DNA of 64,000 nucleotides from Bacteroidales bacterium (GTDB taxonomy: Bacteria; Bacteroidota; Bacteroidia; Bacteroidales; M50B96), in contig JAIOYV010000008.1 of assembly GCA_021740905.1 (NCBI GenBank), positions 9,543-73,542 of the forward strand. Direction: 5' to 3'. Of this stretch, positions 1-43,001 are shown one piece after another. The translations under genes were made by a program, and so were the position numbers. The notes under the pieces were generated by a model. It was not told the origin of the DNA. It was given only the letters and a program-made list of their open reading frames with translations, and did not search any database. The stretch's first letter is position 1, and every line of letters starts with the position of its first letter.

Positions 1-629
1 AGATTGAGGCCAAAGAGAATATCATTGCCAGCCTTATGCGCCAAAAAAAGTGGGAGGCTAAAAAAAGCCAAACGTTGTTATTCCAAATTGACTCCATTAA
101 GGAGCAATACCTCAACGTGATCGATTCCCTTTTAGTTGAAAGGGAGGGGCGGAAAGTAATCAATTCAAAACTATATGATCTGGAGGAAACGCTTGCCGGC
201 CTGACCAAAAAGATTGGGATTGCAAGTTTGCTTGTGGGTGATAATATTAAAGTTTCGCCATTGAAGATTTCGATGGGTGGAAAGCTGAAGAGTACTGCCT
301 TTGCCAAAAAGACAGACGAAATCAAGATTTGCATCGATATCCTTGAAAACAGGATTACGAAAGCCGGGATGAAAAATATCTATTTCGTAATTACCACACC
401 CGATGCAAAAATACTTGTCGATGGCGGAGGGGAAGCGCCCAAGTTTCAACATCCCGACTTTAAAAAGCTGGCCGAGTGCTCAAAAATTGAAACAATCGAC
501 TATCAAAACCAGAAGATAAATCTTTGTACAACCATAAAACCCGGGGAGATTGAAAATACCGGATTATACATCCTCGAAGTTTTCTGCGATGAAACCAAGC
601 TGGGCATAACTACCTTTTCGTTGAAGTAG
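1..629 (+). CDS. hypothetical protein, 5' end outside window
   Basis: The reading frame is open from the window edge in frame 3, and the first ATG at 36 is probably internal. No recognisable motifs. Confidence 0.35.
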   Translation, partial: IEAKENIIASLMRQKKWEAKKSQTLLFQIDSIKEQYLNVIDSLLVEREGRKVINSKLYDLEETLAGLTKKIGIASLLVGDNIKVSPLKISMGGKLKSTAFAKKTDEIKICIDILENRITKAGMKNIYFVITTPDAKILVDGGGEAPKFQHPDFKKLAECSKIETIDYQNQKINLCTTIKPGEIENTGLYILEVFCDETKLGITTFSLK

Positions 630-926
630 AGAGAGTGTGGCTTATCAAATGATTGGATAGTGCTTTTTGCCTACCCAAAGTTACTTCGCATCATTAGCAC
701 TTCGTGTGTCATATTGTTTATGGCTTCGCAACAACTTATTGACTTCCTAATGACGAGAAGCAAATGACTTTGCTTTAATTCCCCAACCTTATTTACAAAG
801 CCTGCTATTTTTTGATTTATGTCCCTCAATTTCCCATTTGAATTTAAATTACTATTTTTATCTGCCTCCAAATTGGAATAAAAGCACATAGTTAAATTGA
901 AATAGAAAATACTAAAAACAAACATT

Positions 927-2069
927 ATGGTTGATTTTTCATTGACAAAAGAACAACAGGCACTTGTTGAAAAATACCGCGATTTCGCCGATCGATTTAT
1001 CCGCCCCGACAGGCTAAAACATGACAAGCTCGCAGAATTCCCTTGGGACATAGTGAAGAAAGCGTATGATGAAGGCATCATGAATGGCCCCATGCCAAAG
1101 AAATTTGGCGGGAACGGATACAATATTTTCGAAGGGGCGTTGACCTCGGAAGAATTGGGTGCCGGCTGTATTGGTATCGGGATTTGTATCGATGCCAACA
1201 CCCTGGCTTTAACACCTATGCTTTTGGCTGCCAACGAAAAGCAGCAAGCCAAATTTTTTGGTCAGATAAACGAAGAAAAGGCAGTTGCAGCTTATTGCCT
1301 TACCGAGCCTAATGCCGGATCGGACGTGCAGGGTATTAAATCGACCGCTATTCTAACCGGCGACAAGTACATCCTGAACGGTCACAAGCGCTTTATCACC
1401 AATGGCGAAGCAGCCAGTTTCTTCACTGTTTTTGCCCAAACCGACCCCGAAAGAGGTTCGCGCAGTCTGAGTGCTTTTGTGGTTCCTGCCGATTTGCCGG
1501 GCATCGAAGTAAAGCCTCATCTCGAAAAAATGGGACAGAAAGCCTCTGTTCAGAATGAAATTATTTTTACCGATGTTGAAGTCCCCAAAGAAAACCTATT
1601 GGGTGAAGAAGGTCATGGATTTTTAATTGCCATGAAAACGTTCGACCGTACCCGTACCGGCGTTGCTGCCCTCAGTTTGGGTGCTGCCCGCGAAGCGTAC
1701 GAAATATCAAAAGAGTGGTCGAAAAACCGGATTCAATTTGGCAAACCAATCGCTGCCAACCAGGCTATTGGTTTTATGTTGGCCGATATGGCAACGCAAA
1801 TTGAAGCTGCCCGTTTGCTAACCTGGAATGCTGCCTGGAATTACGATACCGGTACAAAGAAGGCATCTCTTCTTTCAGCCATGTCAAAACTTTATGCTTC
1901 GGATGTAGCCATGGAAGTGGCCACGAATGCAGTTCAGGTAATGGGTGGCGATGGTTATTCAACCGAATTTGTGGTGGAGAAGATAATGCGCGACGTGAAA
2001 CTTTGCCAGATTTACGAAGGCACGAATCAAGTTCAGCGGATAGTTATTTCAAAAGCTATTTTGAAGTAG
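927..2069 (+). CDS. acyl-CoA dehydrogenase (short/medium-chain type)
   Basis: 380 aa with ACAD hallmarks: YCLTEPNAGSD, a C-terminal QIYEGTNQ-like motif and a typical three-domain length. Confidence 0.9.
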   Translation: MVDFSLTKEQQALVEKYRDFADRFIRPDRLKHDKLAEFPWDIVKKAYDEGIMNGPMPKKFGGNGYNIFEGALTSEELGAGCIGIGICIDANTLALTPMLLAANEKQQAKFFGQINEEKAVAAYCLTEPNAGSDVQGIKSTAILTGDKYILNGHKRFITNGEAASFFTVFAQTDPERGSRSLSAFVVPADLPGIEVKPHLEKMGQKASVQNEIIFTDVEVPKENLLGEEGHGFLIAMKTFDRTRTGVAALSLGAAREAYEISKEWSKNRIQFGKPIAANQAIGFMLADMATQIEAARLLTWNAAWNYDTGTKKASLLSAMSKLYASDVAMEVATNAVQVMGGDGYSTEFVVEKIMRDVKLCQIYEGTNQVQRIVISKAILK

Positions 2070-2117
2070 GAATTTAGTATCAAGTATCGAGTATCAAGAT
2101 ATTCGTATTTTTAGAAA

Positions 2118-2148
2118 AGCAGGAATCAGAAGTGGTTCCTGCTTTTTT
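2118..2148 (+). terminator. rho-independent terminator after the first ACAD gene
   Basis: Stem agcaggaa / ttcctgct followed by a T5 run immediately after the stop codon. Confidence 0.4.
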
Positions 2149-2296
2149 AATATAATCACACCCGATTCCCCAATTCCCTAATTCCCCAATTTCTAATTTA
2201 CTATTAAGAATCGTTCTATAAATTACCTTCGTTTTTTAGATTCAACCAGATAAAGTTATTTTCGCGCCAATATTTTTATTGAGAAAAATCTAAGAA

Positions 2297-4087
2297 TTGA
2301 ATATGGAAACGAATGAATTGATGATGGGAGTTGAGTTTCTGGTTAAAGAAACAGAAGCAAAAGACGTTTTTATACCTGAAGAATTTGACGAAGAACAGCA
2401 GATGATCGTAGATACTTGCTACGATTTCCTCAAGCAGGATGTGTACCCGAATTTTGATCGGATTGATAAGCACGAAAAAGGGTTGATTAAAGGCTTACTT
2501 GCAAAAGCCGGAGAACTGGGTTTGCTGGGAATTTCAATTCCCGAAGACCTGGGTGGCTTCGAACAATCTTACCTCACAAATATGCGCGCCAACGAAGCAT
2601 TCGGATCGGCACACTCTTTTTCGGTGGCCTATATGGCCCATACAGGAATCGGCACTTTGCCTATTCTTTATTATGGCACCGAAGAGCAAAAAGCAAAATA
2701 TATTCCCGATTTGGCATCTGGCGATAAAGCCGCAGCCTATTGTTTGACCGAACCCGATGCCGGCTCCGATGCGAATGCCGGACGGTCAAAGGCTGTTTTA
2801 TCAGAAGATGGAAAACATTATATCCTGAACGGTCAGAAAATGTGGATCACCAACGGCGGTTTTGCCGATACCTACACTGTTTTTGCCAAAATTGAAAACG
2901 ACCGGATTTTAAGCGCATTTATCGTCGAGCGCGATTGGGAAGGCGTAAGTGTTTCTGTTGAAGAAAACAAAATGGGGATCAAAGGTTCCTCTACCACCCA
3001 GGTATTCTTCAACGATGTGAAAGTACCCGTAGAAAACCTGCTGGGCAAGCGTGGCGAAGGTTTCCGTATTGCCATCAACATCCTGCACATTGGCCGGATA
3101 AAGTTGGGGGCTACCGTACTTGGATCGTGCAAACGCACCATCAACAATTCGGTGCAATATGCCAACGAGCGCAAACAATTCGGAAACCTGATCTCGACTT
3201 ATGGCGCCATTAAATTCAAATTGGCCGAGCAGGTAATCAAAACCTGGACGACCGAATCGGCAGTGTACCGTGCTTCTGCCGATATTCAAAAATTAATTGA
3301 GAAGTATGAAGCCGAAGGCATGGAACATGGTCCTGCCATAATCCAGGCCAATGCCGATTTTCAGGTCGAATGTGCCATGTTGAAAGTATTAGGTTCCGAA
3401 TCCCTGGATTACATTGTAGATGAGGGCGTACAGATTTTTGGGGGCATGGGTTTTTCTGCCGAAGCACCTGTCGATAGGGCTTACCGCGACTCGAGGATCA
3501 ACCGTATTTTCGAAGGCACCAACGAAATAAACCGTTTGTGGGCTGCCGACAATGCCATCAAAAAAGGGATGAAATGTAATTTCTCCCTGAAAGATGATTG
3601 TGCCGCTGTTTTGGCAAGTATAGATTCGCTTCCTGAAAAAGTAGATTTTAAAGAAGATTTCTACGAAAATAAGAAGGATGCAATCCAACGGATGAAAAAA
3701 GCCATTATGTTGATCATTGGGGCTGCCAACGAAAAATTCAGCCGTAAGATGGGCGACGAACAGGAAGTCCTTTTCAACATTGCCGATATGTTGATCGAGG
3801 TGTATGCTGCCGAATCGACCATTCTCAGGGTTGAAAAACTCGAGGGCATGAAGGGTGCCGATGCCGTGAAACTTTACAAAGACATAGCCGATGTTTATAC
3901 TTACGACATAGCCGCCAATGTAGCCAAGTACGCAAAAGATGCCATCTATTCATTTGTGGAAGAAGCCGATCAGCAAAAATTCCACAAAGCAATATGCCAT
4001 TTCACCAAAGTTCAAGGTGTAAATGTAAAAGAAGCCCGTCGCCGATTAGCCGACAAGGTGATTGAGGACAACATGTATAAGTTTTAA
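2297..4087 (+). CDS. acyl-CoA dehydrogenase family protein, long form with C-terminal extension
   Basis: 596 aa with YCLTEPDAGSD and an ACAD middle/C-terminal core followed by a roughly 200-aa tail, the FadE-like long-ACAD architecture. Confidence 0.85.
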   Translation: MNMETNELMMGVEFLVKETEAKDVFIPEEFDEEQQMIVDTCYDFLKQDVYPNFDRIDKHEKGLIKGLLAKAGELGLLGISIPEDLGGFEQSYLTNMRANEAFGSAHSFSVAYMAHTGIGTLPILYYGTEEQKAKYIPDLASGDKAAAYCLTEPDAGSDANAGRSKAVLSEDGKHYILNGQKMWITNGGFADTYTVFAKIENDRILSAFIVERDWEGVSVSVEENKMGIKGSSTTQVFFNDVKVPVENLLGKRGEGFRIAINILHIGRIKLGATVLGSCKRTINNSVQYANERKQFGNLISTYGAIKFKLAEQVIKTWTTESAVYRASADIQKLIEKYEAEGMEHGPAIIQANADFQVECAMLKVLGSESLDYIVDEGVQIFGGMGFSAEAPVDRAYRDSRINRIFEGTNEINRLWAADNAIKKGMKCNFSLKDDCAAVLASIDSLPEKVDFKEDFYENKKDAIQRMKKAIMLIIGAANEKFSRKMGDEQEVLFNIADMLIEVYAAESTILRVEKLEGMKGADAVKLYKDIADVYTYDIAANVAKYAKDAIYSFVEEADQQKFHKAICHFTKVQGVNVKEARRRLADKVIEDNMYKF

Positions 4088-4120
4088 GATCAGAAAAGTA
4101 GATAGTAATTCATAGTTTGA

Positions 4121-4159
4121 AAAAAGGGAGAATTGGCGGAGGTTGGTTCTCCTTTTTTT
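4121..4159. terminator. putative terminator
   Basis: An A-run, then stem gggagaa/ttctcc, then a T7 run directly after the ACAD stop. Confidence 0.35.
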
Positions 4160-4618
4160 GTGAAATTAGAAACTTGGGAAATGGTTTTAATAAATACCGT
4201 CCAAATTATGGGTGCAAAGGATATTTGTTAATTGATATATACTGATCTGTTTTACACGTAAATAATAATCTGTTTGTCACTAAATTAGGGTAAATTTCAG
4301 CAAACCATTTCATAGAATTAGGGTAAATTTCAAAATTTTCGGGACTCATTCCCAATAATTCAATGACACATTAGCTAAAGAAAAAGTTGAAAGGAGCTAT
4401 CTAAAAAATCCCGGTCAGGAAAATCAAACCATCAGTAAAATGTTGGATAATGAATATGGTTTGCGGTGAGTTGAAAATCATAAACATTTGCTACTTTTGG
4501 TAGCAATAATATAGCAGGAAAGTAAAATCGAAATCGTTTACCCAATTTTTGTTGAAGTCAGTTTGAATCAATTCACAAATAGATTTTGCTACTTTTGTTT
4601 ATTCATAAAAATTAGTAG

Positions 4619-5947
4619 ATGTCGCGTAGGATTAACCATATTATATCAGAGATTAAGGATCAATATCAATTAAATGACGATTTCAACCGGCCCTGGATAA
4701 TCGGGTTTAGTGGGGGGAAGGATTCAACCGCCTTGTTGCAACTTGTATGGCTTGCTGTAAAGCAAATACCACACGGGAAAAGACAACGAAAAATATATGT
4801 GGTTTGCAACGATACATTGGTCGAAAACCCGATAGTTGTGGATTATGTAACAGGTGTTTTGGAAAAAATTCAGAAAGCCGCCGTACAACAGGGTTTGCCA
4901 ATCGAAGCACAAAAAACAATTCCCCGGCTCGAAGACAGCTTTTGGGTGAATATCGTGGGACGTGGATATCCTGTGCCCAATAATGCTTTTCGCTGGTGTA
5001 CGGATAAGATGAAGATTAAACCTACCTCAAGGTTCATTACCGAGCAAGTGGCAGAAAACGGCGAAGCCATTATTTTGATCGGGACCCGAAGTGCCGAAAG
5101 TGCAACCCGGGCAAAATCTATTAAGAAGCACGAAATCAGGGGTAAGCGGTTGACCAATCACCCAAATCAGCACAATACTTATGTGTATTCACCCATCAAA
5201 GATTTAAAACTCGAAGAAGTCTGGTATATCATTAATGCCATGACATCGCCCTGGGGAGCTGACAATTCACAGTTGTTTCAAATTTATTTGGATGCCAGTG
5301 CCGACGATTATGAATGTCCGACCATGGTGACCGACAAAAGCCATTCATCTTGCGGACAAAGCCGTTTCGGTTGCTGGACCTGTACGGTGGTGAAAGAGGA
5401 TAAGTCGATGAGCGCGTTGGTTGACAAAGGCTACGAATGGTTGCGGCCCCTTTTGGATTTGCGCGAAAGTATGGTGGAGCAACGTAATATTTCTGAAAAC
5501 CGACTGCCTACACGCAGAAACGGACAACGGGCGGTAACCGACGATGGGCATAATCAGGGAACATATACTGATAAATACAGGGCCAAATTATTAATGCAAA
5601 TTCTCGAAGCCCAAAAGAAAGTGCAGGAACATAATCCCAAACTGGAATTAATTACCAATCAGGAACTCGTGGCCATACAGGTAATTTGGAACAGGGATTT
5701 ATGGTTCGATTACAAAGTGGCAGCTATTTATAATAAAGTCTATAATATAGAATTGGAAATGAAAACAAACGACGAGAAACTACAAAAAGAAATTGGCTTG
5801 CTCAGAGAAGTTTGTGAGGATGACCCAAAAGATTTTAAACTTATCCAGGAATTGTTGATTTTGCAAAAAAACAAAGCCTTGCTCAACCGGAAAAGAGGCC
5901 TCAAAGACGACATGGAACGAGTTATTGAGAAATATATTTATGCTTGA
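4619..5947 (+). CDS. DndC/SspD-like PP-loop ATP pyrophosphatase (PAPS reductase family) with DUF3440-like C-terminal domain
   Basis: PP-loop SGGKDS at residues 31-36 and a Cys cluster C-x13-C-x6-C-x2-C (ECP...SSCG...FGCWTC) as in DNA-sulfur-modification DndC-type proteins. Total length 442 aa. A TAnnTTTG -7 box lies about 20 bp upstream. Confidence 0.6.
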   Translation: MSRRINHIISEIKDQYQLNDDFNRPWIIGFSGGKDSTALLQLVWLAVKQIPHGKRQRKIYVVCNDTLVENPIVVDYVTGVLEKIQKAAVQQGLPIEAQKTIPRLEDSFWVNIVGRGYPVPNNAFRWCTDKMKIKPTSRFITEQVAENGEAIILIGTRSAESATRAKSIKKHEIRGKRLTNHPNQHNTYVYSPIKDLKLEEVWYIINAMTSPWGADNSQLFQIYLDASADDYECPTMVTDKSHSSCGQSRFGCWTCTVVKEDKSMSALVDKGYEWLRPLLDLRESMVEQRNISENRLPTRRNGQRAVTDDGHNQGTYTDKYRAKLLMQILEAQKKVQEHNPKLELITNQELVAIQVIWNRDLWFDYKVAAIYNKVYNIELEMKTNDEKLQKEIGLLREVCEDDPKDFKLIQELLILQKNKALLNRKRGLKDDMERVIEKYIYA

Positions 5948-6929
5948 AAAGAATCTGACATATTATTGTTTAAAGTTTGAAAAACTCCGAAGATATTTTA
6001 AAAACGGAGGAGCACCACACAAACCAATCCTACTAATAAGCCTAATTCAGGCATTTCAACAAGGTCTTTATAAATCAAAAGAAATTTTCATTCTACCCGA
6101 ATTGGTTGGCCTTTTCAAATCAAATTGGAACTTATTGGTGGATACGAATCACCATTGTCTTTTTACCCTTCCATTTTATCACCTGAGCACTGAGCCTTTT
6201 TGGCAGCTAAAGCCAAATGCCGGTTGCGAGTTATGGGTAAAATCAAAAAGTTCGATGCGTAGTTTTGCAAATCTTACCACTGCCGTAAAATATGCGATCA
6301 TTGATGCAGAATTAACCAGTTTGATGCTTAAAAAAGAAGAATCATCAATTTTAATTCAGTTCCTTCTTGAAAAGTATTTTCCAAATACTAAAAGCAATTT
6401 CAGTCAAGGAGGTAACAAGTATATTTTGGATATTGAAAAACAAATTGTTGAAGAATCACAGGAAAGCTATAAAACAAGATTGGAACTGATTCGAGATGAA
6501 ATTGATAATGATGCATTTCAGGAAGAAGTATTTGTAAGAAGTGGTATTTTTAAAAGAGAAGTCCCAAGGATTTATAATTTCACTTGTTGTATTTCTGGTT
6601 TGAGGGTTGATGCTTTGGACAATATTTCGATGATAGATGCTTGTCATATTGTTCCATTCTCGGAAAGCTATAATGATACTATTTCAAACGGGATTGCTCT
6701 ATGTCCAAATCTTCATAGAGCTTTTGACCGAGGATTAATATCGATCGATAACAACTATAAGGTGATTTTAAATGGTAATTTTTCTGAAAACTTCGATTCG
6801 ACCTACAACATAAAACAATTTGAAGGAAAAGTAATTTTGCTCCCAGAAAATCCTAATTATAAACCGTCTTTAGAGTCATTGAAAAGCCACAGAGAACGGT
6901 TTGGATTTTCTTCACTGAGAAAAATATGA
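5925..6929 (+). CDS. HNH endonuclease with N-terminal putative modified-DNA reader domain (type IV restriction-like)
   Basis: The C-terminal HNH motif is CHIVPFSE...NGIALCPNLHRAFDRGLISI. The N-terminal domain of about 190 aa is uncharacterised. The gene overlaps the upstream stop by 23 nt and is very AT-rich. Confidence 0.6.
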   Translation: MRNIFMLEKNLTYYCLKFEKLRRYFKNGGAPHKPILLISLIQAFQQGLYKSKEIFILPELVGLFKSNWNLLVDTNHHCLFTLPFYHLSTEPFWQLKPNAGCELWVKSKSSMRSFANLTTAVKYAIIDAELTSLMLKKEESSILIQFLLEKYFPNTKSNFSQGGNKYILDIEKQIVEESQESYKTRLELIRDEIDNDAFQEEVFVRSGIFKREVPRIYNFTCCISGLRVDALDNISMIDACHIVPFSESYNDTISNGIALCPNLHRAFDRGLISIDNNYKVILNGNFSENFDSTYNIKQFEGKVILLPENPNYKPSLESLKSHRERFGFSSLRKI

Positions 6930-9645: not shown

Positions 9646-10146
9646 TTAGCGTGAATTTAGCGTGAAAATATTGATCATGTCGTCCTGTTTGAAACTTTGG
9701 ATCATAGCTGGGATTTTGGCAAAGTCGATGTTTCCGATCAGGTAAAAAACATAAAGATCTTCCCCGGTGCTAACCGTACCCGTCAACTCGTTAACACGAC
9801 CCTCCTTTCCATATATCGAGAAATTCGTTTTGCCGCCCCACATATTGGCATATTCTTCGAAATCGTTGGCAAGGTAATCCTCCATAATTTTACGGTACGA
9901 TTTGTCGGCCAGGGCAGTGGAGTCGAGCGTGTAGACCAACAACTTTTCGATGCCCTCCACCATTTTATTGTAGTCCTCGTTCTTGGCCAGGTTGATCATG
10001 CGCAAAGTACTGGGGTAAAAGCAATATTTTTTATTGCAGGCAGTATCGGCATACGTTTTCAGGATGTCCTGTTGTGCAAAAAGGGGCTGCATTAGCCCCA
10101 GCGCAAAAACGAACAAAAACCATTTACTTCTTCTCGGCATTTTCAA
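9646..10146 (-). CDS. DUF4252-like secreted protein
   Basis: Signal peptide plus a DUF4252-like pattern, paralogous to the next gene and in the typical position downstream of an ECF sigma/anti-sigma pair. Confidence 0.5.
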   Translation of the reverse strand: MKMPRRSKWFLFVFALGLMQPLFAQQDILKTYADTACNKKYCFYPSTLRMINLAKNEDYNKMVEGIEKLLVYTLDSTALADKSYRKIMEDYLANDFEEYANMWGGKTNFSIYGKEGRVNELTGTVSTGEDLYVFYLIGNIDFAKIPAMIQSFKQDDMINIFTLNSR

Positions 10147-10651
10147 TTTTTTTCAGGTTTTCGAGGCCTTTTATTTTCATCGATCGGGCAATTTTTGATA
10201 TGTTTTTCAGGTCGATTTCGCCATACAAACTGAGCATCACAAAATTCTTTTTTCCGCCCACAACCATAATCAACTCCTCAATTTTGCCTTTATTTTCCTT
10301 GATCAAAAATTTCATGTCCTCGCTGGCATCCTGCACTGTCATCAATTCCTCATAACCCTCTTTGCTGATGTCGGCACATGCCTGGGCATATATTTTCGCT
10401 GAATTGGCCACACTGTCCGCAGCCAGTACTTTCAGACCTTTAAGTTTGCTCACGGCCTCAAGAAAGGCTTTTTCGTCGTCACCATCAGCTTCCAATTCGG
10501 TAAACAGGGAGAACATCTTACTGTTCACGGTCACTTTTGTGAAATCCTCGTTGTCGGCATACTGGTTGAAATATTTGGTAATCACACTTCCTTGTGCCAT
10601 GCCTGCAAAAGACAGCAAGCTTAATCCGATAATTAAAATGTTTGTTTTCAT
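10124..10651 (-). CDS. DUF4252-like secreted protein
   Basis: Signal peptide, then ITKYF..Y....F.KV.V..KMFSL motif characteristic of DUF4252. Confidence 0.55.
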   Translation of the reverse strand: MKTNILIIGLSLLSFAGMAQGSVITKYFNQYADNEDFTKVTVNSKMFSLFTELEADGDDEKAFLEAVSKLKGLKVLAADSVANSAKIYAQACADISKEGYEELMTVQDASEDMKFLIKENKGKIEELIMVVGGKKNFVMLSLYGEIDLKNISKIARSMKIKGLENLKKIENAEKK

Positions 10652-10752
10652 GTTTTTAAGTTATTAGATGGTTTAAAAATAATTTACTGATTTAGATTTA
10701 TAGGGTATTTTTGAGGTCATATATTCGAAGGACAGACTGGTTGAAATCTGGG

Positions 10753-10850
10753 AAGATTTCCTCCGCTGGCGGAGGCCAGGGGGTGGAATTAATTGCAGGA
10801 AATCCCCCCTCTTATTCTCCCCTGGGGGGGAGACAGTGCTATGTTGCAAT
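10753..10850 (+). repeat. dispersed ~100-bp intergenic repeat, copy 1
   Basis: Near-identical to 26866-26961. Shared blocks are CCGCTGGCGG..GG..AGGG.GTGGAATTAA.TGC, CCCCCCTCTTATTCTCCCC and GTTGCAATC. Confidence 0.55.
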
Positions 10851-10940
10851 TCATTAGAAGAAATTATGACGTTTGTCCAAACCATAGCCCCATTTTCAAT
10901 TTTAAACAGTTCAACTAAACTTTATATCCTACGGCCTGTC

Positions 10941-11372
10941 TCATTTTGAAATTAGTTGAGTTGCCTCTTCAAATTTCTGCAAGTTATCCACATAAGCCGT
11001 CCCTTTGTTCATGCCCGATGAAATTGACATAAGTGCCTGCCTTGTAATTTCAAAGGCTTTTTGTGGGTCATCGACCAGAAATTCGTTTTGTTTTTGAGAT
11101 TGTTGGAATAGGTAAGCCCCTCCCATAATTCCCACGAAAATTGCGGCTGCCATCATCCATTTTGGCAATAAGAATTTCCTGCCGGGATGTTTAAACTCAA
11201 CAGGCGGCTTTAGTACCGATGCTTTTTTCAGATGCTTGAAATAGCCGGCTTCAGAATCTGTTGAATTATTTTTGCTGAAATAATTTTTTAGGATTTTTTC
11301 TTCTTCTATGGTCGTTTCCCCAGCCCAATATTTTTCCTGTATTTCTTTAATTCGCGATTCCATAGTCTTCAA
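10941..11372 (-). CDS. putative anti-sigma factor / membrane protein
   Basis: 143 aa with one transmembrane segment. It overlaps the 3' end of the ECF sigma gene by 26 nt. Confidence 0.4.
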   Translation of the reverse strand: MKTMESRIKEIQEKYWAGETTIEEEKILKNYFSKNNSTDSEAGYFKHLKKASVLKPPVEFKHPGRKFLLPKWMMAAAIFVGIMGGAYLFQQSQKQNEFLVDDPQKAFEITRQALMSISSGMNKGTAYVDNLQKFEEATQLISK

Positions 11373-12962: not shown

Positions 12963-14063
12963 TCAATCCTCGATAATACGCATCAGGTCGTTGTTGATAT
13001 AGACATTCTCGTTGCCTATCTTTTTTAATTCAAGTACATTTATTTCGCATAGTTGGTCAAGATATTTTCGTGCCGTGTTCCGGCTTTTTATTTTGTCGCC
13101 AACCACCTGAATGGCTTTTATGTAGGGTTGAGTGAAAATGGCTTCGAGGAGAAAAAATGGGATATTGGGAAGTTTCTGTTCAACATACAGCCTGGTCGAT
13201 TGAAATTGATCCATTATTTCATCAATCTTGAAAATGGTGTAGTTGGCAGTTTCTTTTAAGGCCAAAAGCATAAACTTCAGCCATCTTTCCCACGATCCAA
13301 GTGTTGATACTGAGTTCAACAAATGATAATAGTCGTCTTTGTTGCGAATAATGTATTTGCTTAGGTATAAGATGGGAAATTTCAGGATGTCTTTTTTTAT
13401 AAGGATAAGGACGTTCAGGATTCGACCTGTTCTGCCATTGCCGTCCGAGAATGGATGAATGGCTTCGAATTGGTAATGGGCAATGGCCATTTTCAGCAAT
13501 GGGTCGTACGGATATTTCTCATCATCGTTTATAAAATCAAGAAGGTTTTGATAAAGCTTTACGATCAAACCTTCATTATTTGGAGGTGTATATACCACCT
13601 TGCCACTGGTAAGGCTCGATCCTCCTTTTACAATCCTCACATTCGCTTGTGGTGAACGAACGCCCTGAGAAGTTTCCTTTATTTTTTGGTAAATACTGAT
13701 CAGGGTGTTGAAATCGAGTTCCGTTTTATTTGCCAGTGAATTTATTCCCTCCCATAGCGATTCACGATATCTCAGTACCTCTTTGGCGGCAGGGCTTATA
13801 TTCGTGTCGGTGGTTGAAAGGGCTTTGTAAAGCTCATCCTCGGTGGTGAAGATATTTTCGATTTCGGAACTCGACTTTGCCTCCTTCAAGGCAATGGTGT
13901 TTACCAGCATCAGAGGGTTTGGCAATCGTTGCGACATGCCATCTAACTTCCCCAAAGACCTATTGGCCTGAGACAAAAGAAGAAGAACCTCCTTCGTGAG
14001 TATTTTATCTTCGCTGGGAGGAAGCAATGGTAAGTCGTTGAATGGTTTTTCGCGGTCGAACAT
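12963..14063 (-). CDS. Fic family protein (AMPylation/Doc-like)
   Basis: Fic motif HPFSDGNGRTGR. Start placed at ATG 14063 (MFDREKPF...). The TTG-extended start at 14090 was rejected. Confidence 0.85.
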   Translation of the reverse strand: MFDREKPFNDLPLLPPSEDKILTKEVLLLLSQANRSLGKLDGMSQRLPNPLMLVNTIALKEAKSSSEIENIFTTEDELYKALSTTDTNISPAAKEVLRYRESLWEGINSLANKTELDFNTLISIYQKIKETSQGVRSPQANVRIVKGGSSLTSGKVVYTPPNNEGLIVKLYQNLLDFINDDEKYPYDPLLKMAIAHYQFEAIHPFSDGNGRTGRILNVLILIKKDILKFPILYLSKYIIRNKDDYYHLLNSVSTLGSWERWLKFMLLALKETANYTIFKIDEIMDQFQSTRLYVEQKLPNIPFFLLEAIFTQPYIKAIQVVGDKIKSRNTARKYLDQLCEINVLELKKIGNENVYINNDLMRIIED

Positions 14064-14075
14064 ATTTTTTCGTTT

Positions 14076-14240
14076 GCACAAATATAGCAATAATTTGTGC
14101 GAACGGTGATTTTCCTGTCAAACTATGACCATATTTTAACCGTCTGCACAAAAATCAGAATAATTTGTGCAGACCCCTGTTTTTGTGTCAAACAATGACA
14201 AGTTTTATCTTGATCGCACAATATTGATCATTTTTTGTGC
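14076..14240. promoter_or_regulatory. 3 x 70-bp direct repeats each containing a 25-bp palindrome GCACAA-N13-TTGTGC, immediately upstream of fic
   Basis: Palindromes at 14076-14100, 14146-14170 and 14216-14240, with an exact 70-bp period. Units 1 and 2 also carry TGTCAAAC(T/A)ATGAC palindromes. Confidence 0.6.
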
Positions 14241-24563: not shown

Positions 24564-25628
24564 TTAATCTGTGAATTTGTGGCATTCTTCAAGTACCATT
24601 TTAAGCAAAGGTATTTTAATCAATTGCATACCATCCTCTTCGATGTATTCGAAGGGCAAATCGGAAAAATACAGGTACGATGTTTTCATCCTTTCGAGCC
24701 GGTTCGAATAGTCATGTCCGGGTCCGAGCCTTTTGTTCAAGGGATGTTTAATTTGAAGGTAATCATCATTCAGTGATACATCTATCGTGAGGCCCTGATG
24801 CTGATCAATAATGCTGGTCCGGCAGGCAATTTCGAGTAAACTCAAAAGGGCACAGGGTATCAACAGTTTTTCCGATTGTTTTTTGCTGATATTTTGAACA
24901 AGATTGATTTGCCCTGAATATCGGGTATTTAAAATATAGAGAAGCGAATCAACCAGTTTCAATTCCTCCCGTAAAGGCACAAGGTCGTTGTTTCGGTTGT
25001 GCAGACAGTAGCGATAAAACGCCGACAAATGCCCGATGAACTCATCGGCTTCTTTTTTCGAGCGGTGGATCAACCCAATAAGGCTTTCAAAACTGTCGAA
25101 AAGCAAGCCCGGGTTTACTTCGTTTTTAAAACTCTCTAGGTCGGCCTCAAGGTTTTTTCGGAGCAAGGTTTCTGCATTTATCTTTACTTCATTTTTCTTA
25201 TCAAGGAAAAAAAGGCTTAGGTGGATAAGGTTGTACAACAAGCTGGTTAGTAAAAACATGGCGTTGAAAGTAATCAACTCGGTGCGGAAAGAGGTAAAGC
25301 CCACCACAAACCGGAAATAGAACCACAAGCCCAAACTGACAATCAGGATGCTGAGAAGAAACCCTGCCCCAAATTGCAGGATGATGTGCCAGGTATGGCG
25401 ATTTTGTCGGGTCATAATTTTACCAATCAACAGGTTGATGGCACGAATAGCCTCGAACTGGATATAGCACAATGCAATGGTCACGAAAATTTCCTGGCTA
25501 AAGAAATTCTCTTTAAGCCATGTCAACGAATCGAAAATCAATAGAATAAGGATATAGACCACCGAGCCGTAAAGCATGGGTGCAATAAGCCTGAAAACAA
25601 TGCGGTTCAGAAAAATATCAGGCTTCAT
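24564..25628 (-). CDS. sensor histidine kinase (LytS/His_kinase type)
   Basis: Multi-transmembrane N-terminus with a C-terminal His-kinase internal region and ATPase region. Overlaps the next kinase by 11 nt. Confidence 0.7.
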   Translation of the reverse strand: MKPDIFLNRIVFRLIAPMLYGSVVYILILLIFDSLTWLKENFFSQEIFVTIALCYIQFEAIRAINLLIGKIMTRQNRHTWHIILQFGAGFLLSILIVSLGLWFYFRFVVGFTSFRTELITFNAMFLLTSLLYNLIHLSLFFLDKKNEVKINAETLLRKNLEADLESFKNEVNPGLLFDSFESLIGLIHRSKKEADEFIGHLSAFYRYCLHNRNNDLVPLREELKLVDSLLYILNTRYSGQINLVQNISKKQSEKLLIPCALLSLLEIACRTSIIDQHQGLTIDVSLNDDYLQIKHPLNKRLGPGHDYSNRLERMKTSYLYFSDLPFEYIEEDGMQLIKIPLLKMVLEECHKFTD

Positions 25629-26700
25629 AATTGGCAGGGATTAGAGGTAAAAGCACAGTAAAATTCTCGTTGCAACGCATCGTTACTTTTTCATCGGTAA
25701 AAAAAGCATAGCGTTTTCTGATGTTCTCCAGGCCAATTTTCATCGATTGACCCACCGGGGGTTTACGCAGCATTTTATCGTCCAGTACAATATGCCCTGG
25801 TTTTGGCCTGAACGGATTGCTAATTTCAAGAAAGCTTCCTTCTTTCACAGAAATCCTGATTTCAAGAGGCTCCTCTTCAGACATCCGGTTGTGTTTTAGG
25901 GCATTTTCAAGGAGCATTTGTAGGCTAAGGGGTGGGATTTTGGAGGTCATAAATTCTGTGCCGATTTCAATTTTTAGCTTGAATAAGTGCTCAAAACGGA
26001 CACCCATTAAGTTGGCATAGCCTTGCACCATTTCTATTTCGTCCGACAAACTAATCAGTTTTTGTTCATGTGTTTGGAGGATATACTGAAAAGAACCGGA
26101 CAGGTCGCGGATAAATTTTTCGGCTATTTTGCTATCACGATAAAGAAGTGAAGAAACCGTGTTGAGCGAATTGAACAAATAATGCGGGCTTAACTGGCTT
26201 TTCAATGCTTCGAACTGAAGGTTCAACAACCTGCGTTTTTGTTTCTCTTCTTCAATTTGGATGGCGGTGAAAAAGTTGAACGAAAAGAAAGCGAAGTCGA
26301 CAATTTCGGCAAGGAAAACCAGAAAAGTGGAAATGATGAGCAACTTCCAGTGCATATCGCCAAAAGCCAAGGGCATTCGAGCTGTTTCATTTCTGAATAA
26401 ATAATACTCGGCCAACCAGGTTATTAGCAACACGAAACCCGTTATCAGGACGGCCTGGTACACAAATCCAACGATAAAACGAAGTCCCAGTTGTTTTTTC
26501 CAGTGAAACCAACCATTGAGTTGATTTGCCGATAGATAATAGATAAACCCGGCAAGACCGCCCACACAAATCGAAAACAGAAAGTCATCAAAATGGCTGG
26601 ATAGGGAAGGGAACACACCATTGAAGCTATACGACAAATACGTGTACACCACCAATCCGAGCAATGATGCGATTCCGATAATCCAACCCTGTTTTTTCAA
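25618..26700 (-). CDS. sensor histidine kinase (LytS/His_kinase type), paralog
   Basis: Same architecture as 24564-25628, including HYLFNSLN and ENA-KHN motifs. Confidence 0.7.
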   Translation of the reverse strand: MKKQGWIIGIASLLGLVVYTYLSYSFNGVFPSLSSHFDDFLFSICVGGLAGFIYYLSANQLNGWFHWKKQLGLRFIVGFVYQAVLITGFVLLITWLAEYYLFRNETARMPLAFGDMHWKLLIISTFLVFLAEIVDFAFFSFNFFTAIQIEEEKQKRRLLNLQFEALKSQLSPHYLFNSLNTVSSLLYRDSKIAEKFIRDLSGSFQYILQTHEQKLISLSDEIEMVQGYANLMGVRFEHLFKLKIEIGTEFMTSKIPPLSLQMLLENALKHNRMSEEEPLEIRISVKEGSFLEISNPFRPKPGHIVLDDKMLRKPPVGQSMKIGLENIRKRYAFFTDEKVTMRCNENFTVLLPLIPANYEA

Positions 26701-26865
26701 ATCTATTCTATTTTGATTACTTAAAGCCAGAAATTCAAAAGTAAGAATTTGTTCCTAATAATGAATTTCCGGCTTGGAAAACTGGTTTGCGAAATAAACT
26801 GTGCTGTTTAATATTTTAATCTTTCGGCTAAAACATTTGCAAAAATGCCTAATTATGTAATCAGG

Positions 26866-26961
26866 GAGGATTTTCCCCGCTGGCGGGGGTTAGGGAGTGG
26901 AATTAAATGCTGATTCCCCCCTCTTATTCTCCCCAAGGGCAGACAATTCTCCGTTGCAATC
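26866..26961 (+). repeat. dispersed ~100-bp intergenic repeat, copy 2
   Basis: Matches copy 1 at 10753-10850 over nearly its full length, in the same orientation. Confidence 0.55.
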
Positions 26962-27129
26962 TTTTGTGAATGTTATTATAGATTCTCTTTTAATTTCACA
27001 ACAATATTGTCTTTTAAAGACCTGACACAAAATTTATATTCCCTAATCACTCCTTTTCTCCAATTTAAGTTCTGAACAAAAACCCGGATGTTTCAAAATG
27101 GGTCAATAATCTGATTGAAACCCCAAGGC

Positions 27130-28821
27130 TTAGTTCAGTTCTTTCATCACTCGGTCGCGTTCCGACTGAGAGGAAATGGTACTTGCAACTTCCCTGTATT
27201 TCGAAACATACTCCAATTCCTTTGGCATAATCTGGGCAAGCTCAACCAGCACACTTGCTTTTTCGGTATTCGACGCCAACCTTGTAGTACTGTGCAATAT
27301 CCCAAAAATATAATCTGGATTCAGTTTTCCTTTTCTGATTAATTCACGTAGTACCCGCCCATGCTCCGTATCGCTCGAAATGGTATTTACTGTAAGGAAA
27401 AAAGCTTCAACCACCGATTTATTTAATTCGAGATGTGGAATTAAATCGCGCATCACATAGCCCAATTCCATGTTTGACGAAAGGCGCTTTGTGGCATAGA
27501 GGAACTCAATCATGGCATCAGTATTTAGGGTCTGGGCACTGATCAGGTCGCGCAGTACCCGGCCTTTTTCGGTATTACTCGACAAACTGTTGACCGTGGC
27601 AAAATAAGCAAGCATAATCTCCTTGTCGTTCAAATCGATGTTCTTCATTCCCCGCAACACCGTCCCCAGTTCAACATTCGAGCTGATTCGTTTGGCCGAA
27701 TAGAGATAAGCAATCATGGCATCTTTATTCAGTTGTGTTTTTCGGTACAATTCGCGCAGTACCCGGCCACCTTCCGTATTGCTTGTGAGACTGGTAACCG
27801 CCGCAAAATAAGCTTCGATCACATCGGGATTGGTGAAATTAACTTTCTTGATGGAATGTAATACCGATGCCAGCTCAGTGTTCGACGTTATCTTTTTAGT
27901 GGTGACCAAATAGGAAATGAAGGCCTCATCCGAAAGATCCTGCTTCGTAAGCAAATCGCGCAGTACACTGCCACTTTCGGTGCTGCTTTCCATTTTGTTT
28001 ACCACATTGAAATAAGCCTCCGAAATCAAGGGGTTGTTTATATTAATTTTTGGATTGATGGTCCTTAAAACGGATCCGCGCTCGGTGTTTGAATACATCT
28101 TTGCAACACTCCGCAAATAGGCGGCACACACATCGGGATCGGTGATGAACAACTCAAAATGTTTGCGGTAAAATTTGGCACATTCGGTTTCGGAACTAAT
28201 CCTGACCGGTATGTTTTCGATGATGGATATTTTTTCAATTTTCGTTAAACCAGGTTGCGACATTAATGCCGAAAAATATTCAGCCTTTACCGAATTGGAT
28301 GGCAATAGGTTAATTTCAGCAATCACCCCATCGACGCCTTTGCTGGCATATATGCGCTTGGCTCGGTTCTCTGCATCAATTCCGGTAGCCCTGATCACTT
28401 CAATCAGCACTTCGCCCAACCATTTTTTCCCTTCCGGTTCGTAAGGCTGTTCATTCCGGTTTTCGTAAAACTTGCGGGTTAACTGTCCATTCGAATCGCT
28501 TTCGATACTTATGGTCCGCTTGTTCCCAAAAGTTTTTTGGCTGAACCTTAGATAGCCTCCAGGTGAGATACTTTTTAAGTCCCGGTCGTTGTCGGTGACA
28601 CGGATTTCTCCTTTTAATTCGATATCGAGATCGGAGGTTGGAGTGGATACTCTGTAACTCGAAAGACCTCCAGTTCCATAGGTACAGTTGACAATTTTAC
28701 AATCGCCGGAGTAGCTCATTGTTGAACTTTTATGAGCCGAGCAACTCCAAAATGAAGTGGCAATAGGAATTACAACGATAAGCAAAGATCGAAAAATTTG
28801 GCGCAATCTTCTTTTTTCCAT
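27130..28821 (-). CDS. lipoprotein with about 10 tandem ~37-aa repeats (S-N-T-E-x-G-x-V-L-R-x-L core), function unknown
   Basis: Signal peptide and lipobox (FWSC). The repeats read AYLxSVAKMYSNTERGSVLRTI, SNTEGGRVLRELY, SNTEKGRVLRDLI and so on. Confidence 0.5.
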   Translation of the reverse strand: MEKRRLRQIFRSLLIVVIPIATSFWSCSAHKSSTMSYSGDCKIVNCTYGTGGLSSYRVSTPTSDLDIELKGEIRVTDNDRDLKSISPGGYLRFSQKTFGNKRTISIESDSNGQLTRKFYENRNEQPYEPEGKKWLGEVLIEVIRATGIDAENRAKRIYASKGVDGVIAEINLLPSNSVKAEYFSALMSQPGLTKIEKISIIENIPVRISSETECAKFYRKHFELFITDPDVCAAYLRSVAKMYSNTERGSVLRTINPKININNPLISEAYFNVVNKMESSTESGSVLRDLLTKQDLSDEAFISYLVTTKKITSNTELASVLHSIKKVNFTNPDVIEAYFAAVTSLTSNTEGGRVLRELYRKTQLNKDAMIAYLYSAKRISSNVELGTVLRGMKNIDLNDKEIMLAYFATVNSLSSNTEKGRVLRDLISAQTLNTDAMIEFLYATKRLSSNMELGYVMRDLIPHLELNKSVVEAFFLTVNTISSDTEHGRVLRELIRKGKLNPDYIFGILHSTTRLASNTEKASVLVELAQIMPKELEYVSKYREVASTISSQSERDRVMKELN

Positions 28822-32554: not shown

Positions 32555-33040
32555 TTTAATTTTTTAACTAGCTAATAGAAAATGCCAATAACTGCGTTAC
32601 GCTCAACTTGCAAGTCAGTCACTTACAAAAGTAAGCTCCTGACCTGCAAGCTTCGCAAGCCTTATTCTTGACATTTTCAATTAGCTACATTGTTTGTTTT
32701 CATTTTCTTTTTGAAACTTGAAGAAGGCATATAAAGCAATCCATTGCGAAATGGCGGAAGGCTGATTAAGCAACTACTTGCCAGTCTCATTTCGTCGAAA
32801 ACCGATAAGCCGAAAAGGGTCGCTCCCTTTGGTAAAATCAATTTCTTCAAAAGATCAACAGGAAAATAGTTGCGGTATCCTCATTCTTTCAAAGCTACTT
32901 CACAACTGTTCCTTTACCCGAAAGCAAGGAACCAGACTGCTTTATTGCTTTCAACTTTTGGCAACCATTTTTAGAAGTGGTTTACTTCTCTGAAGATGGA
33001 GTGACAATCCATTGCATTCAACCGCTCTGCCATCCCGGAA

Positions 33041-33131
33041 ACCGGGAGTGGGATTCGAACCCACGATCTCTGTTTGATGTTCTACCAACTGAACTATCCC
33101 AAAACTAATGGGAGAGGGAATCGAACCCTCG
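33041..33131 (-). pseudogene. two tandem tRNA-like remnants (T-arm plus acceptor 3' halves, one with intact D-arm)
   Basis: GTGGGTTCGAATCCCAC and GAGGGTTCGATTCCCTC T-arms lie 67 bp apart. There is no complementary 5' acceptor and the anticodon region is too short, so neither folds into a canonical tRNA. Confidence 0.3.
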
Positions 33132-33953: not shown

Positions 33954-33998
33954 GATATTTAATTTATTCTTATTTATATTCCTGTTCCGGGAACTTTG

Positions 33999-34071
33999 TA
34001 TCGGGCAGGGGATTCGAACCCCTTTTTCTACCGTGAAAGGGTAGTGTCCTGGCCGATTAGACGAGCCCGAC
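33999..34071 (-). tRNA. tRNA-Glu (anticodon UUC)
   Basis: Hand fold gives acceptor GTCGGGC/GCCCGAT, D-arm GTCT..GGAC, anticodon stem CTACC/GGTAG with loop CTTTCAC, and T-arm AGGGG-TTCGAAT-CCCCT. Confidence 0.8.
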
Positions 34072-42993: not shown

Positions 42994-43001
42994 ATTATCT
43001 T

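What the first reader, a model, noticed from the sequence alone, without database searches (positions are those of the whole stretch)
10753..10850. Novel ~100-bp dispersed intergenic repeat (two copies in this window), candidate small RNA or REP-like element
Copies at 10753-10850 and 26866-26961 are about 85% identical over their length and in the same orientation. Both lie directly upstream of minus-strand genes (the DUF4252 gene and a histidine kinase) and inside regulatory-protein operons. The first 20 nt of copy 1 are diverged, while the GTGGAATTAA core (starting 10783), the CCCCCCTCTTATTCTCCCC block and the GTTGCAATC 3' end are conserved. The conserved blocks include a C-rich/G-rich segment, CCCCCCTCTTATTCTCCCCTGGGGGGG, that can pair. 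This argues for a structured element rather than neutral DNA.
Basis: seen in the sequence. Interest (0 to 1): 0.55.

Follow-up and report, generated by a model that had tools for sequence, protein, structure and literature searches.

The report
Paired triplex-forming DNA repeat (BoxC-like)
The two ~105-110-bp intergenic copies are real, but they are a Bacteroidota version of an already described kind of bacterial repeat (BoxC / PIT / "TM" intrastrand-triplex motifs, here as an inverted pair), not a new small RNA.

Summary
The repeat exists: 10742-10850 and 26856-26960, same orientation, 81% identical (78% counting gaps), GC 50-53% inside 30%-GC spacers. It matches no Rfam family, plasmid or phage. 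Each copy is an imperfect palindrome of two "hairpin + mirror-image purine tail" modules on opposite strands, tails facing inward. Unit B (minus strand) reads TCTCCCC-loop-GGGGAGA-ATA-AGAGGGGGG. Unit A (plus strand) reads CC(T/C)CCGC-TG-GCGG(A/G)GG-(CCA/TTA)-GGGGGTGG. This is the class II purine-motif intrastrand triplex architecture of E. coli BoxC / PIT / TMECO repeats (Hoyne 2000; Holder 2015), including their tail-to-tail doublets with a ~16-bp spacer. Unit B's 18-nt mirror core followed by its hairpin partner recurs in Patescibacteria, Chloroflexota, Ignavibacteria, Spirochaetota and others. Across other hairpins in those loci the tail follows the stem by the mirror rule. A 96%-identical relative carries both copies at the same sites. 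More distant relatives lack them or hold another palindrome. Stems are conserved more than loops and spacers (p=0.0016). Window copy 2 has a decayed pyrimidine arm. There is one compensatory change, no terminator, no G-quadruplex, no TIR or TSD. Verdict: new member of a known kind, most likely a non-B-DNA-forming dispersed repeat without shown regulatory function. Low to moderate interest.

The parts
10742..10850 (.). Copy 1 of the ~109-bp doublet element, lying between the putative anti-sigma ORF (10941-11372, -) and the DUF4252 gene (10124-10651, -)
   Evidence: GC 53% against 31% in the rest of the spacer
10742..10759 (.). Copy 1 left conserved flank (TGAAATCTGGGAAGATTT), shared by the paralogous and orthologous copies but outside the triplex modules
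   Evidence: alignment A4
10760..10786 (+). Copy 1 unit A: Y arm CCTCCGC (10760-10766), loop TG, R arm GCGGAGG (10769-10775), loop 2 CCA, tail GGGGGTGG (10779-10786). The hairpin is perfect but the triplex is imperfect (2 mismatched triplets)
   Evidence: Compared with the other three copies (CCCCCGC/GCGGGGG) it carries a compensatory T-A pair. It is not reported by my ITxF-like scan
10787..10803 (.). Copy 1 inner spacer (AATTAATTGCAGGAAAT). The two inward-facing tails plus GGAAT/ATTCC can form a central hairpin
   Evidence: helix 2 is 94% paired
10804..10833 (-). Copy 1 unit B, read on the - strand: Y arm TCTCCCC (10833-10827), loop CCCA, R arm GGGGAGA (10822-10816), loop 2 ATA, mirror tail AGAGGGGGG (10812-10804). 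This is a class II purine-motif intrastrand triplex motif
   Evidence: (one of only 2 hits in the window; shuffles average 0.07)
10834..10850 (.). Copy 1 right conserved flank (CAGTGCTATGTTGCAAT)
   Evidence: alignment A4
26856..26960 (.). Copy 2 of the doublet element, lying between the 563-aa repeat-protein ORF (27130-28821, -) and the LytS-type histidine kinase gene (25618-26700, -)
26874..26900 (+). Copy 2 unit A: Y arm TCCCCGC (26874-26880), loop TG, R arm GCGGGGG (26883-26889), loop 2 TTA, tail GGGAGTGG (26893-26900)
   Evidence: The ortholog in L080 (CCCCCGC-TG-GCGGGGG-TTA-GGGGGTG) passes the ITxF-like criteria
26916..26943 (-). Copy 2 unit B, read on the - strand: decayed Y arm TCTGCCC (26943-26937), loop TT, R arm GGGGAGA (26934-26928), loop 2 ATA, tail AGAGGGGGG (26924-26916). 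The 17-bp mirror repeat is intact, while the hairpin is weakened by one substitution and a 2-nt deletion
   Evidence: 7-nt stem, 1 mismatch; the L080 ortholog has the intact arm TCTCCCC-TTGG-GGGGAGA

Best explanation
Each copy is an inverted, tail-to-tail doublet of two G/C-rich potential intrastrand-triplex modules, the BoxC / PIT / TM class (class II purine motif).

On the G-rich strand of a module, a pyrimidine arm pairs with a purine arm to form a hairpin. After a 3-nt turn (ATA, TTA or CCA), a purine tail that is the mirror image of the purine arm can lie antiparallel in the major groove, forming G.G-C, A.A-T and T.A-T triplets. The mirror repeat would also allow H-DNA in the supercoiled duplex.

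The fold can only arise when the duplex is opened by replication, transcription or supercoiling. By analogy with E. coli TMECO, the expected consequence is a very stable non-B structure that can stall polymerases and makes the locus prone to small deletions and rearrangements.

The whole ~109-bp unit, including ~18-nt flanks outside the modules, has been copied to at least two intergenic sites in this Bacteroidota lineage. I read it as a dispersed, selfish or near-neutral genomic repeat rather than a regulator of the neighbouring sigma-factor or two-component operons.

Shown here: the sequence architecture, the mirror-rule covariation in the wider class, paralogy, presence/absence among relatives, stronger conservation of stems than of loops, and decay of one arm.

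Inferred: actual triplex formation, polymerase stalling and instability, and the mode of spread.
For: Architecture. Unit B fits the published ITxF definition, and the two unit B copies are the only G/C-rich class II hits in 64 kb on both strands, against 0.07 per dinucleotide shuffle. The ortholog L080 passes for both units, tail-to-tail with a 20-bp gap.

Same layout as E. coli. The hrpB-mrcB BoxC doublet reads CCCTCTCCC-TGT-GGGAGAGGG-CCG-GGGTGAGGG, a 17-nt spacer, then ACCCTCACCC-TAA-CCCTCTCCC-TCAA-GGGAGAGGG (coordinates from Table 1 of PMC4666352).

Wider class. The 18-mer mirror core was found in 18 genome loci, 53 metagenome loci and 1 viral locus from many phyla. In most of them it is followed by a loop and GGGGGAGA. 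In hairpins not near that core, the 3' flank matches the mirror of the purine arm in 20 of 55 cases. It matches a direct copy in 10 and random permutations in 5.8, with 19 distinct stem/tail combinations.

Literature (PMC4666352). TMECO folds into a triplex in CD and NMR with Tm 70-82 C. It is always intergenic, and its loops are less conserved than its stems. Doublets always pair two subtypes. Copies are often mutated or deleted between strains.

Here. Stems have 36/42 invariant columns against 39/69 for the rest of the element (Fisher p=0.0016). The element is present at both sites in the 96% relative. It is replaced by another palindrome in the 93% relatives and absent in the 62-75% relatives. 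Copy 2 has lost part of its Y arm, and a ~130-141-bp indel lies next to it.
Against: Unit A in both window copies has two mismatched triplets. Its purine arm contains a C, so it fails the strict definition. Its one compensatory change preserves the hairpin but not the triplet.

Neither unit matches the TMECO sequence consensus.

Only two sites are known, in each of two related genomes, so genome-wide copy number is unknown.

The element diverges between orthologs about as fast as the adjacent spacer DNA (85-86% against 80-96%). There is therefore no measurable hyper-instability or overall constraint.

In E. coli the triplex was not detected in vivo by DMS footprinting.

The stem-versus-loop test rests on four non-independent sequences.
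Confidence: 0.75

Rival explanations
1. Non-autonomous mobile element (MITE- or REP/REPIN-like). The 109-bp imperfect palindrome would be moved in trans by a transposase, for example a single-strand HUH/RAYT-type enzyme that recognises the hairpins. This reading can coexist with the triplex reading.
For: The whole unit, including flanks outside the triplex modules, is shared by the two sites. Presence/absence varies among relatives, and a different palindrome occupies site 1 in the 93% relatives. The inverted-doublet layout resembles REPINs.
Against: I found no terminal inverted repeats or target-site duplication by inspecting the four copies and their flanks. There is no GTAG-type REP head. 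No Y1 transposase family appears among the precomputed Pfam hits for the ~34 kb annotated around the copies. No copy was found in plasmids, phages or IMG/VR. Holder et al. likewise found no link of TMECO to mobile elements.
Confidence: 0.3
2. RNA-level cis element inside the operons. The GC-rich hairpins in the polycistronic mRNA would act as a 3'-exonuclease barrier, a processing site or an attenuator between the upstream gene and the DUF4252 or kinase gene. Alternatively the element would be a small RNA gene.
For: Both copies have the same orientation relative to co-directional flanking genes. Three hairpins are predicted consistently. There is one compensatory pair in hairpin A. The copy 1 sense strand folds with z = -3.5.
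Against: No Rfam family is reached; the best hit is whalefall-1 at 19.9 bits against a gathering score of 37. The copy 2 sense strand has z = 0.0. Covariation is not above shuffles (125/500). There is no terminator-like U-tract. The element is absent from the same operons in 62-75% relatives, which keep other conserved upstream blocks. PIT elements showed no promoter or terminator activity in E. coli (cited in PMC4666352).
Confidence: 0.12
3. G-quadruplex / hairpin / duplex switch, as proposed for the same E. coli repeats (HPG1/HPG2; Kaplan et al. 2016, PMC5100583).
For: The class is G-rich, and the E. coli units contain four G3 tracts.
Against: Neither copy has four G3+ tracts on either strand. 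Only a weak two-tetrad pattern exists in unit A, and unit B has none. Unit B is nevertheless the most conserved and most widespread module.
Confidence: 0.03
4. A short protein-coding gene. Gene callers predict a 70-aa ORF (10673-10885, -) across copy 1.
For: The ORF is called in L019 and L074.
Against: It has no Pfam hit. The paralogous copy differs by 2-, 2- and 1-nt indels and has no equivalent ORF. In L080 a 48-aa ORF is called on the opposite strand. The peptide is simply the translation of the G/C runs.
Confidence: 0.02

Closest known systems
E. coli BoxC / PIT element / TMECO doublets (Bachellier et al. 1990s; Hoyne, Edwards, Viari & Maher 2000; Holder et al. 2015, PMC4666352)
   Same: Both have the class II order Y arm, loop, R arm, 3-nt loop, mirror purine tail. 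Both are G/C-rich and strictly intergenic. Both form tail-to-tail inverted doublets of two different subtypes about 16-20 bp apart, 76-85 bp in total. The TTA second loop occurs in both. Stems are better conserved than loops, and copies are mutated or deleted between close relatives.
   Different: Stems are 7-8 nt instead of 9-10. The stem sequences differ (GGGGAGA/AGAGGGG and GCGGGGG/GGGGGTG against GGGAGAGGG/GGGTGAGGG). The two units of a doublet have unrelated stems rather than the same stem with different loops. Unit A has a C in its purine arm. About 18-nt conserved flanks are part of the repeat. No G3x4 quadruplex potential exists. The host is an uncultivated Bacteroidota, not Enterobacteria.
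Unit B-type TM found here in other phyla (TCTCCCCC-loop-GGGGGAGA-ATA-AGAGGGGG)
   Same: The purine arm, second loop and tail are identical (the 18-nt mirror core), followed by the matching pyrimidine arm.
   Different: Those copies are mostly solitary, or paired with other unit types such as GGAGGG/GGGGTGAGG. None has the unit A partner or the flanks of the window element.
REP / BIME / REPIN elements
   Same: Short, GC-rich, palindromic, intergenic repeats that are often in inverted pairs and vary between strains.
   Different: No conserved GTAG-type head, no associated RAYT seen, and the defining feature here is a mirror-repeat tail rather than only an inverted repeat.
Rfam whalefall-1 (RF01762)
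   Same: A UCUCYCC/GGRGAGA hairpin followed by a G-rich block. This is the only Rfam model giving a weak hit on unit B.
   Different: The score is 19.9 and 12.0 bits against a gathering score of 37. The model's G-rich block lies 24 nt away. The element is not a member.

Membership tests
Intrastrand triplex motif, class II purine type (PIT / TM, ITxF definition) | Three consecutive blocks Y-R-RH on one strand, stems 6-15 nt, loops 1-6 nt, at most one mismatched triplet when the stem is 7 nt or longer | tested here: met
   Unit B passes in copy 1 (8 nt with 1 mismatch, or 7 nt perfect) and in copy 2 (7 nt with 1 mismatch), and in L074 and L080. Unit A passes only in L080. Unit A in both window copies has 2 mismatches and fails.
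Intrastrand triplex motif, class II purine type (PIT / TM, ITxF definition) | The tail is the antiparallel mirror of the purine arm, giving G.G-C, A.A-T or T.A-T triplets rather than a direct repeat | tested here: met
   GGGGAGA-ATA-AGAGGGG is a perfect mirror in all 4 copies. Class-wide, mirror matches number 20/55 against 10 direct and 5.8 permuted.
Intrastrand triplex motif, class II purine type (PIT / TM, ITxF definition) | More frequent than in shuffled sequence, and G/C-rich | tested here: met
   2 hits in the window against a mean of 0.07 in 30 dinucleotide shuffles.
Intrastrand triplex motif, class II purine type (PIT / TM, ITxF definition) | The single strand actually folds into a triplex (CD, NMR, melting) | not testable with these tools
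   Shown only for E. coli TMECO oligonucleotides (PMC4666352).
BoxC / TMECO sequence family of Enterobacteria | Consensus CCCTCNCCC-N3-6-GGGNGAGGG-N3-GGGNGAGGG | tested here: not met
   The stems are TCTCCCC/GGGGAGA/AGAGGGG and CCCCCGC/GCGGGGG/GGGGGTG. The structural class is the same but the sequence family is different.
BoxC / TMECO sequence family of Enterobacteria | Inverted tail-to-tail doublets combining two subtypes, with a ~16-bp spacer | tested here: met
   The window spacers are 17 and 15 bp, and the L080 gap is 20 bp. E. coli 164547-164631 has a 16-17 bp spacer.
BoxC / TMECO sequence family of Enterobacteria | Dispersed in many copies per genome | tested here: inconclusive
   Two sites in the 64-kb window, and the same two sites in 34 kb of the relative. 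No complete genome was available, and the lineage was not found in the genome or JGI metagenome scans.
REP / BIME (RAYT-associated) | 20-40-bp palindrome with a conserved 5' tetranucleotide head, and a RAYT (Y1 transposase) gene in the genome | tested here: inconclusive
   There is no GTAG-like head in the units. No Y1_Tnp appears among the precomputed Pfam hits around the copies. The rest of the genome was not available.
MITE | Terminal inverted repeats and a target-site duplication | tested here: not met
   The end flanks are not inverted copies of each other, and no duplicated bases border either copy (inspection).
Any Rfam 15 family | Score at or above the gathering threshold | tested here: not met
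Intrinsic terminator | GC-rich hairpin followed by a T/U run | tested here: not met
   0 terminator-like sites in either spacer, on both strands.
G-quadruplex-hairpin switch (HPG1/HPG2) | Four G3+ tracts with 1-7-nt loops | tested here: not met
   None on either strand of either copy.

The most novel reading that the evidence does not exclude
The 109-bp doublet is an actively propagating unit whose hairpin-plus-mirror-tail modules are the recognition structure for an unknown single-strand DNA enzyme. Such an enzyme could be a transposase, a recombinase, or a repair or replication-restart factor. The near-identical unit B modules in Patescibacteria, Chloroflexota, Ignavibacteria, Spirochaetota, Proteobacteria and Bacteroidota would then reflect a shared, still undiscovered mechanism that creates or spreads triplex motifs, rather than convergence on the few stable G-rich mirror sequences.
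Probability: 0.08. Interest if true: 0.65.

Novelty: new member of a known kind. Interest (0 to 1): 0.25.

Why it matters
It removes a false lead: this is neither a new sRNA nor a new repeat class. It also documents a distinct sequence family of the poorly understood intrastrand-triplex repeats in an uncultivated Bacteroidota lineage. One point bears on an open question. Unit B keeps a perfect mirror, triplex-type symmetry but cannot form a canonical G-quadruplex. This favours the triplex or mirror-repeat property over the G4 property as the conserved feature of this class. Gene callers also turn the element into a spurious 70-aa ORF, which matters for annotation.

Tried and rejected
- **Rfam.** I ran the gathering threshold on the whole window and permissive scans of both spacers. 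Only sub-threshold noise appeared (whalefall-1 at 19.9 bits).
- **RNA and DNA folding of both strands**. Z-scores are inconsistent between the copies, so they give no support for a dedicated RNA.
- **Covariation on the 4-copy alignment**. One compensatory pair, not above shuffles.
- **Metagenome scan for the composite** (GGAATTAA-N5-18-18-mer). Zero hits.
- **18-mer scans of genomes, metagenomes and IMG/VR**. These found the module in many phyla but no second lineage with the composite element. blastn of the element against all 79 loci found only the orthologs.
- **Plasmid and phage blastn.** No match.
- **Terminator and promoter scans.** Nothing above shuffles.
- **G4 regex.** Negative.
- **Extending the genome beyond the window.** Look-ups with end proteins gave nothing or only 620 bp, so genome-wide copy number could not be obtained.
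- **Hyper-mutability of the element.** Not seen. Ortholog identity of the element (85-86%) is about that of the flanking spacer (80-96%).
- **TIR and TSD search by eye.** Negative.

Full report
**1. Observation.**

The two copies are real. By blastn and MAFFT they span 10742-10850 and 26856-26960 on the + strand (E=3e-19). Identity is 81% of aligned bases, or 78% counting four gap columns.

The 19-nt core CCCCCCTCTTATTCTCCCC occurs exactly twice in the window against 0.01 expected. The copies are G+C islands (53% and 50%) in spacers of about 30% G+C, in a window of 40%.

Gene context:
- Copy 1 lies between a putative anti-sigma ORF and a DUF4252 gene, downstream of an ECF sigma factor gene.
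- Copy 2 lies between a 563-aa repeat protein and the first of two LytS-type kinase genes, which are followed by a LytTR regulator.
- All these genes are on the minus strand (Pfam marks).

The source is an uncultivated Bacteroidota. The identical DUF4252 protein is labelled "MAG: Bacteroidales bacterium", and its homologues are mostly Cytophagales-like.

**2. Anatomy.**

Each copy has two modules on opposite strands.

- **Unit B**, read on the minus strand, is TCTCCCC-CCCA-GGGGAGA-ATA-AGAGGGGGG. This is a pyrimidine arm, a loop, the complementary purine arm, a 3-nt turn, and a purine tail that is the exact mirror image of the purine arm.
- **Unit A**, on the plus strand, is CCTCCGC-TG-GCGGAGG-CCA-GGGGGTGG in copy 1 and TCCCCGC-TG-GCGGGGG-TTA-GGGAGTGG in copy 2.

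The tails face each other across a 15-17-bp spacer. About 18 nt on either side are also shared between copies. The element is therefore an imperfect palindrome. Folding either strand as DNA gives three hairpins: hairpin A, a central hairpin formed by the two tails, and hairpin B.

**3. The lead from other genomes.**

I scanned one genome per species for the 18-nt mirror core. It gave 18 loci in Patescibacteria, Chloroflexota, Ignavibacteriales, Spirochaetota, a gammaproteobacterium and others. In 14 of the 18, the core is followed by a short loop and GGGGGAGA, which is the same module. The metagenome scan gave 53 more loci with the same pattern in most of them, and IMG/VR gave one.

The same loci contain other hairpins with different stems. 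Their 3' tails follow the stem by the mirror rule, with A kept or replaced by T:
- AAGGGGAGG is followed by GGTGGGGTT or GGAGGGGTT.
- AAGAGGGGA is followed by AGGGGAGTT.
- GGAGGGGGAGGA is followed by AGGAGGGGGAGG.
- GGGAGAGGG is followed by GGGTGAGGG.

Excluding everything near the searched core, 20 of 55 hairpins with asymmetric arms have a mirror-matching tail. Ten match a direct copy and 5.8 match random permutations. G.G-C, A.A-T and T.A-T are exactly the triplets of the antiparallel purine-motif triple helix.

**4. This is a known class.**

A literature search with GGGTGAGGG led to Holder et al. 2015 (PMC4666352). The motif was first listed as BoxC in E. coli. Hoyne et al. (2000) rediscovered it as the PIT element (their term is "potential intrastrand-forming triplex"). 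Holder et al. catalogued it as TM/TMECO, with consensus CCCTCNCCC-N3-6-GGGNGAGGG-N3-GGGNGAGGG.

That paper reports the following:
- The single strand folds into a class II triplex (CD and NMR; Tm 70-82 C).
- The triplex was not detected in vivo by DMS footprinting.
- The motif is always intergenic and has no gene-class bias.
- It has no promoter or terminator activity (citing earlier work by Maher and colleagues).
- It blocks DNA polymerase in vitro.
- Its loops are less conserved than its stems.
- Copies are often mutated or deleted between strains.
- Five pairs among the 23 MG1655 copies are inverted doublets that always combine a TTA-loop unit with a CCG-loop unit.

I fetched one such doublet, NC_000913 164547-164631. 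It has the same tail-to-tail layout with a 16-17-bp spacer.

My re-implementation of the ITxF rules finds exactly two G/C-rich class II motifs in the 64-kb window, the unit B of each copy, against 0.07 per shuffle.

**5. Relatives.**

A 96%-identical relative (ENA ERZ24842147, 239.8-kb contig) carries the element at both orthologous sites (L074, L080). In L080 both units pass the ITxF-like rules, tail-to-tail with a 20-bp gap.

L080 also shows the ancestral forms: unit A CCCCCGC-TG-GCGGGGG-TTA-GGGGGTG and an intact unit B. The window's copy 2 has therefore lost part of its pyrimidine arm through one substitution and a 2-nt deletion. The window's copy 1 carries a compensatory T-A pair in hairpin A that the tail does not follow.

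At other identity levels:
- Relatives at 93% protein identity hold a different long palindrome at site 1.
- Relatives at 62-75% lack any such element at either site.
- Those relatives do keep another conserved block upstream of the kinase gene.
- A ~130-141-bp indel lies next to copy 2.

Across the four copies, the triplex and hairpin segments are invariant in 36 of 42 columns. The loops, spacer and flanks are invariant in 39 of 69 (p=0.0016). Overall ortholog divergence of the element (85-86% identity) is like that of the neighbouring spacer DNA (80-96%).

**6. Rivals.**

- **Small RNA or cis-regulatory RNA.** No Rfam family is reached. There is one compensatory pair, not above shuffles. Fold z-scores are inconsistent between copies. 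No terminator is found. The purine-motif triplex is stated not to form in RNA.
- **MITE or REP.** The whole unit was clearly copied, but I see no TIR, no TSD, no REP head and no nearby Y1 transposase. Nothing matches in plasmids or phages. This rival remains possible as the mode of spread.
- **G-quadruplex switch** (PMC5100583). Four G3 tracts are absent.
- **Coding.** The 70-aa ORF across copy 1 is not preserved in the paralog.

**7. Verdict.**

The finding is a genuine repeat, correctly sensed as structured and REP-like. It is a new sequence family, in Bacteroidota, of the known intrastrand-triplex (BoxC/PIT/TM) repeats in their known doublet form.

Mechanism: a transient hairpin-plus-third-strand fold of the G-rich strand when the DNA is single-stranded. 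The likely effects are on replication and local stability rather than on regulation of the neighbouring operons. The architecture and its evolutionary pattern are shown here. Triplex formation and its consequences are inferred from the E. coli work.

Limits:
- Unit A in the window is an imperfect member.
- Genome-wide copy number is unknown.
- The function of this class remains unresolved in the literature.

Noticed in passing
window 26715-26800 (read on the - strand): The block CGTTTATTTCGCAA...CAGTTTTCCAAGCCGGAAATTCA...TGAATTTCTGGCTTT lies upstream of the LytS-type kinase gene. It is conserved down to relatives with 62-73% protein identity and contains the inverted repeat GCCGGAAATTCA/TGAATTTCTGGC. 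It is probably the real promoter, operator or leader of this operon.
   Followed up: partly
window ~26965-27095: About 130-141 bp directly adjacent to copy 2 is present in the window but absent from the 96%-identical relative L080. This is an indel next to the triplex doublet.
   Followed up: partly
L076 ~400-520 (also L077, L078): Relatives with a 93%-identical DUF4252 protein carry a different long palindrome (AATCTGTGAATCTGTGGCA...TGCCACAGATTCACAGAT) at the position of copy 1. This spacer appears to be a hot spot for palindromic inserts.
   Followed up: no
window 33040-33103 (-): Rfam reports a 64-nt tRNA-like match (38.8 bits, missing the anticodon arm) that ARAGORN does not call. It lies about 900 bp from tRNA-Glu(TTC) at 33998-34071 and may be a tRNA remnant or integration scar.
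   Followed up: no
window 14071-14206: Two tandem ~70-bp units, each with an internal palindrome (TGCACAAA...TTTGTGCA), lie just upstream of the Fic-domain gene at 12963-14090 (family D5).
   Followed up: no
window 10673-10885 (-): Gene finders call a 70-aa ORF across copy 1 (also in L019 and L074). It is most likely an annotation artefact of the G/C-rich repeat.
   Followed up: partly
L008 (Dehalococcoidia chromosome OZ241984.1) 200-6850: Dozens of TMECO-like units (CCCTCTCCC-loop-GGGAGAGGG-CTA/TCA-GGGTGAGGG) alternate in orientation at ~60-130-bp spacing. This is a dense array of triplex motifs in a Chloroflexota genome.
   Followed up: no
L049 2078-2122: A single hairpin carries mirror tails on both sides (CCCCCTCTTAT-TCTCCCCC-loop-GGGGGAGA-ATAAGAGGGGG). 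Both strands can therefore form a class II motif from one hairpin.
   Followed up: no
window 41417-46322: Several internal direct repeat families (56-nt units in 6 copies, and 200-300-nt units about 2.8-3.4 kb apart at 74-76% identity). They probably lie within large repeat-domain protein genes (families D1-D3).
   Followed up: no
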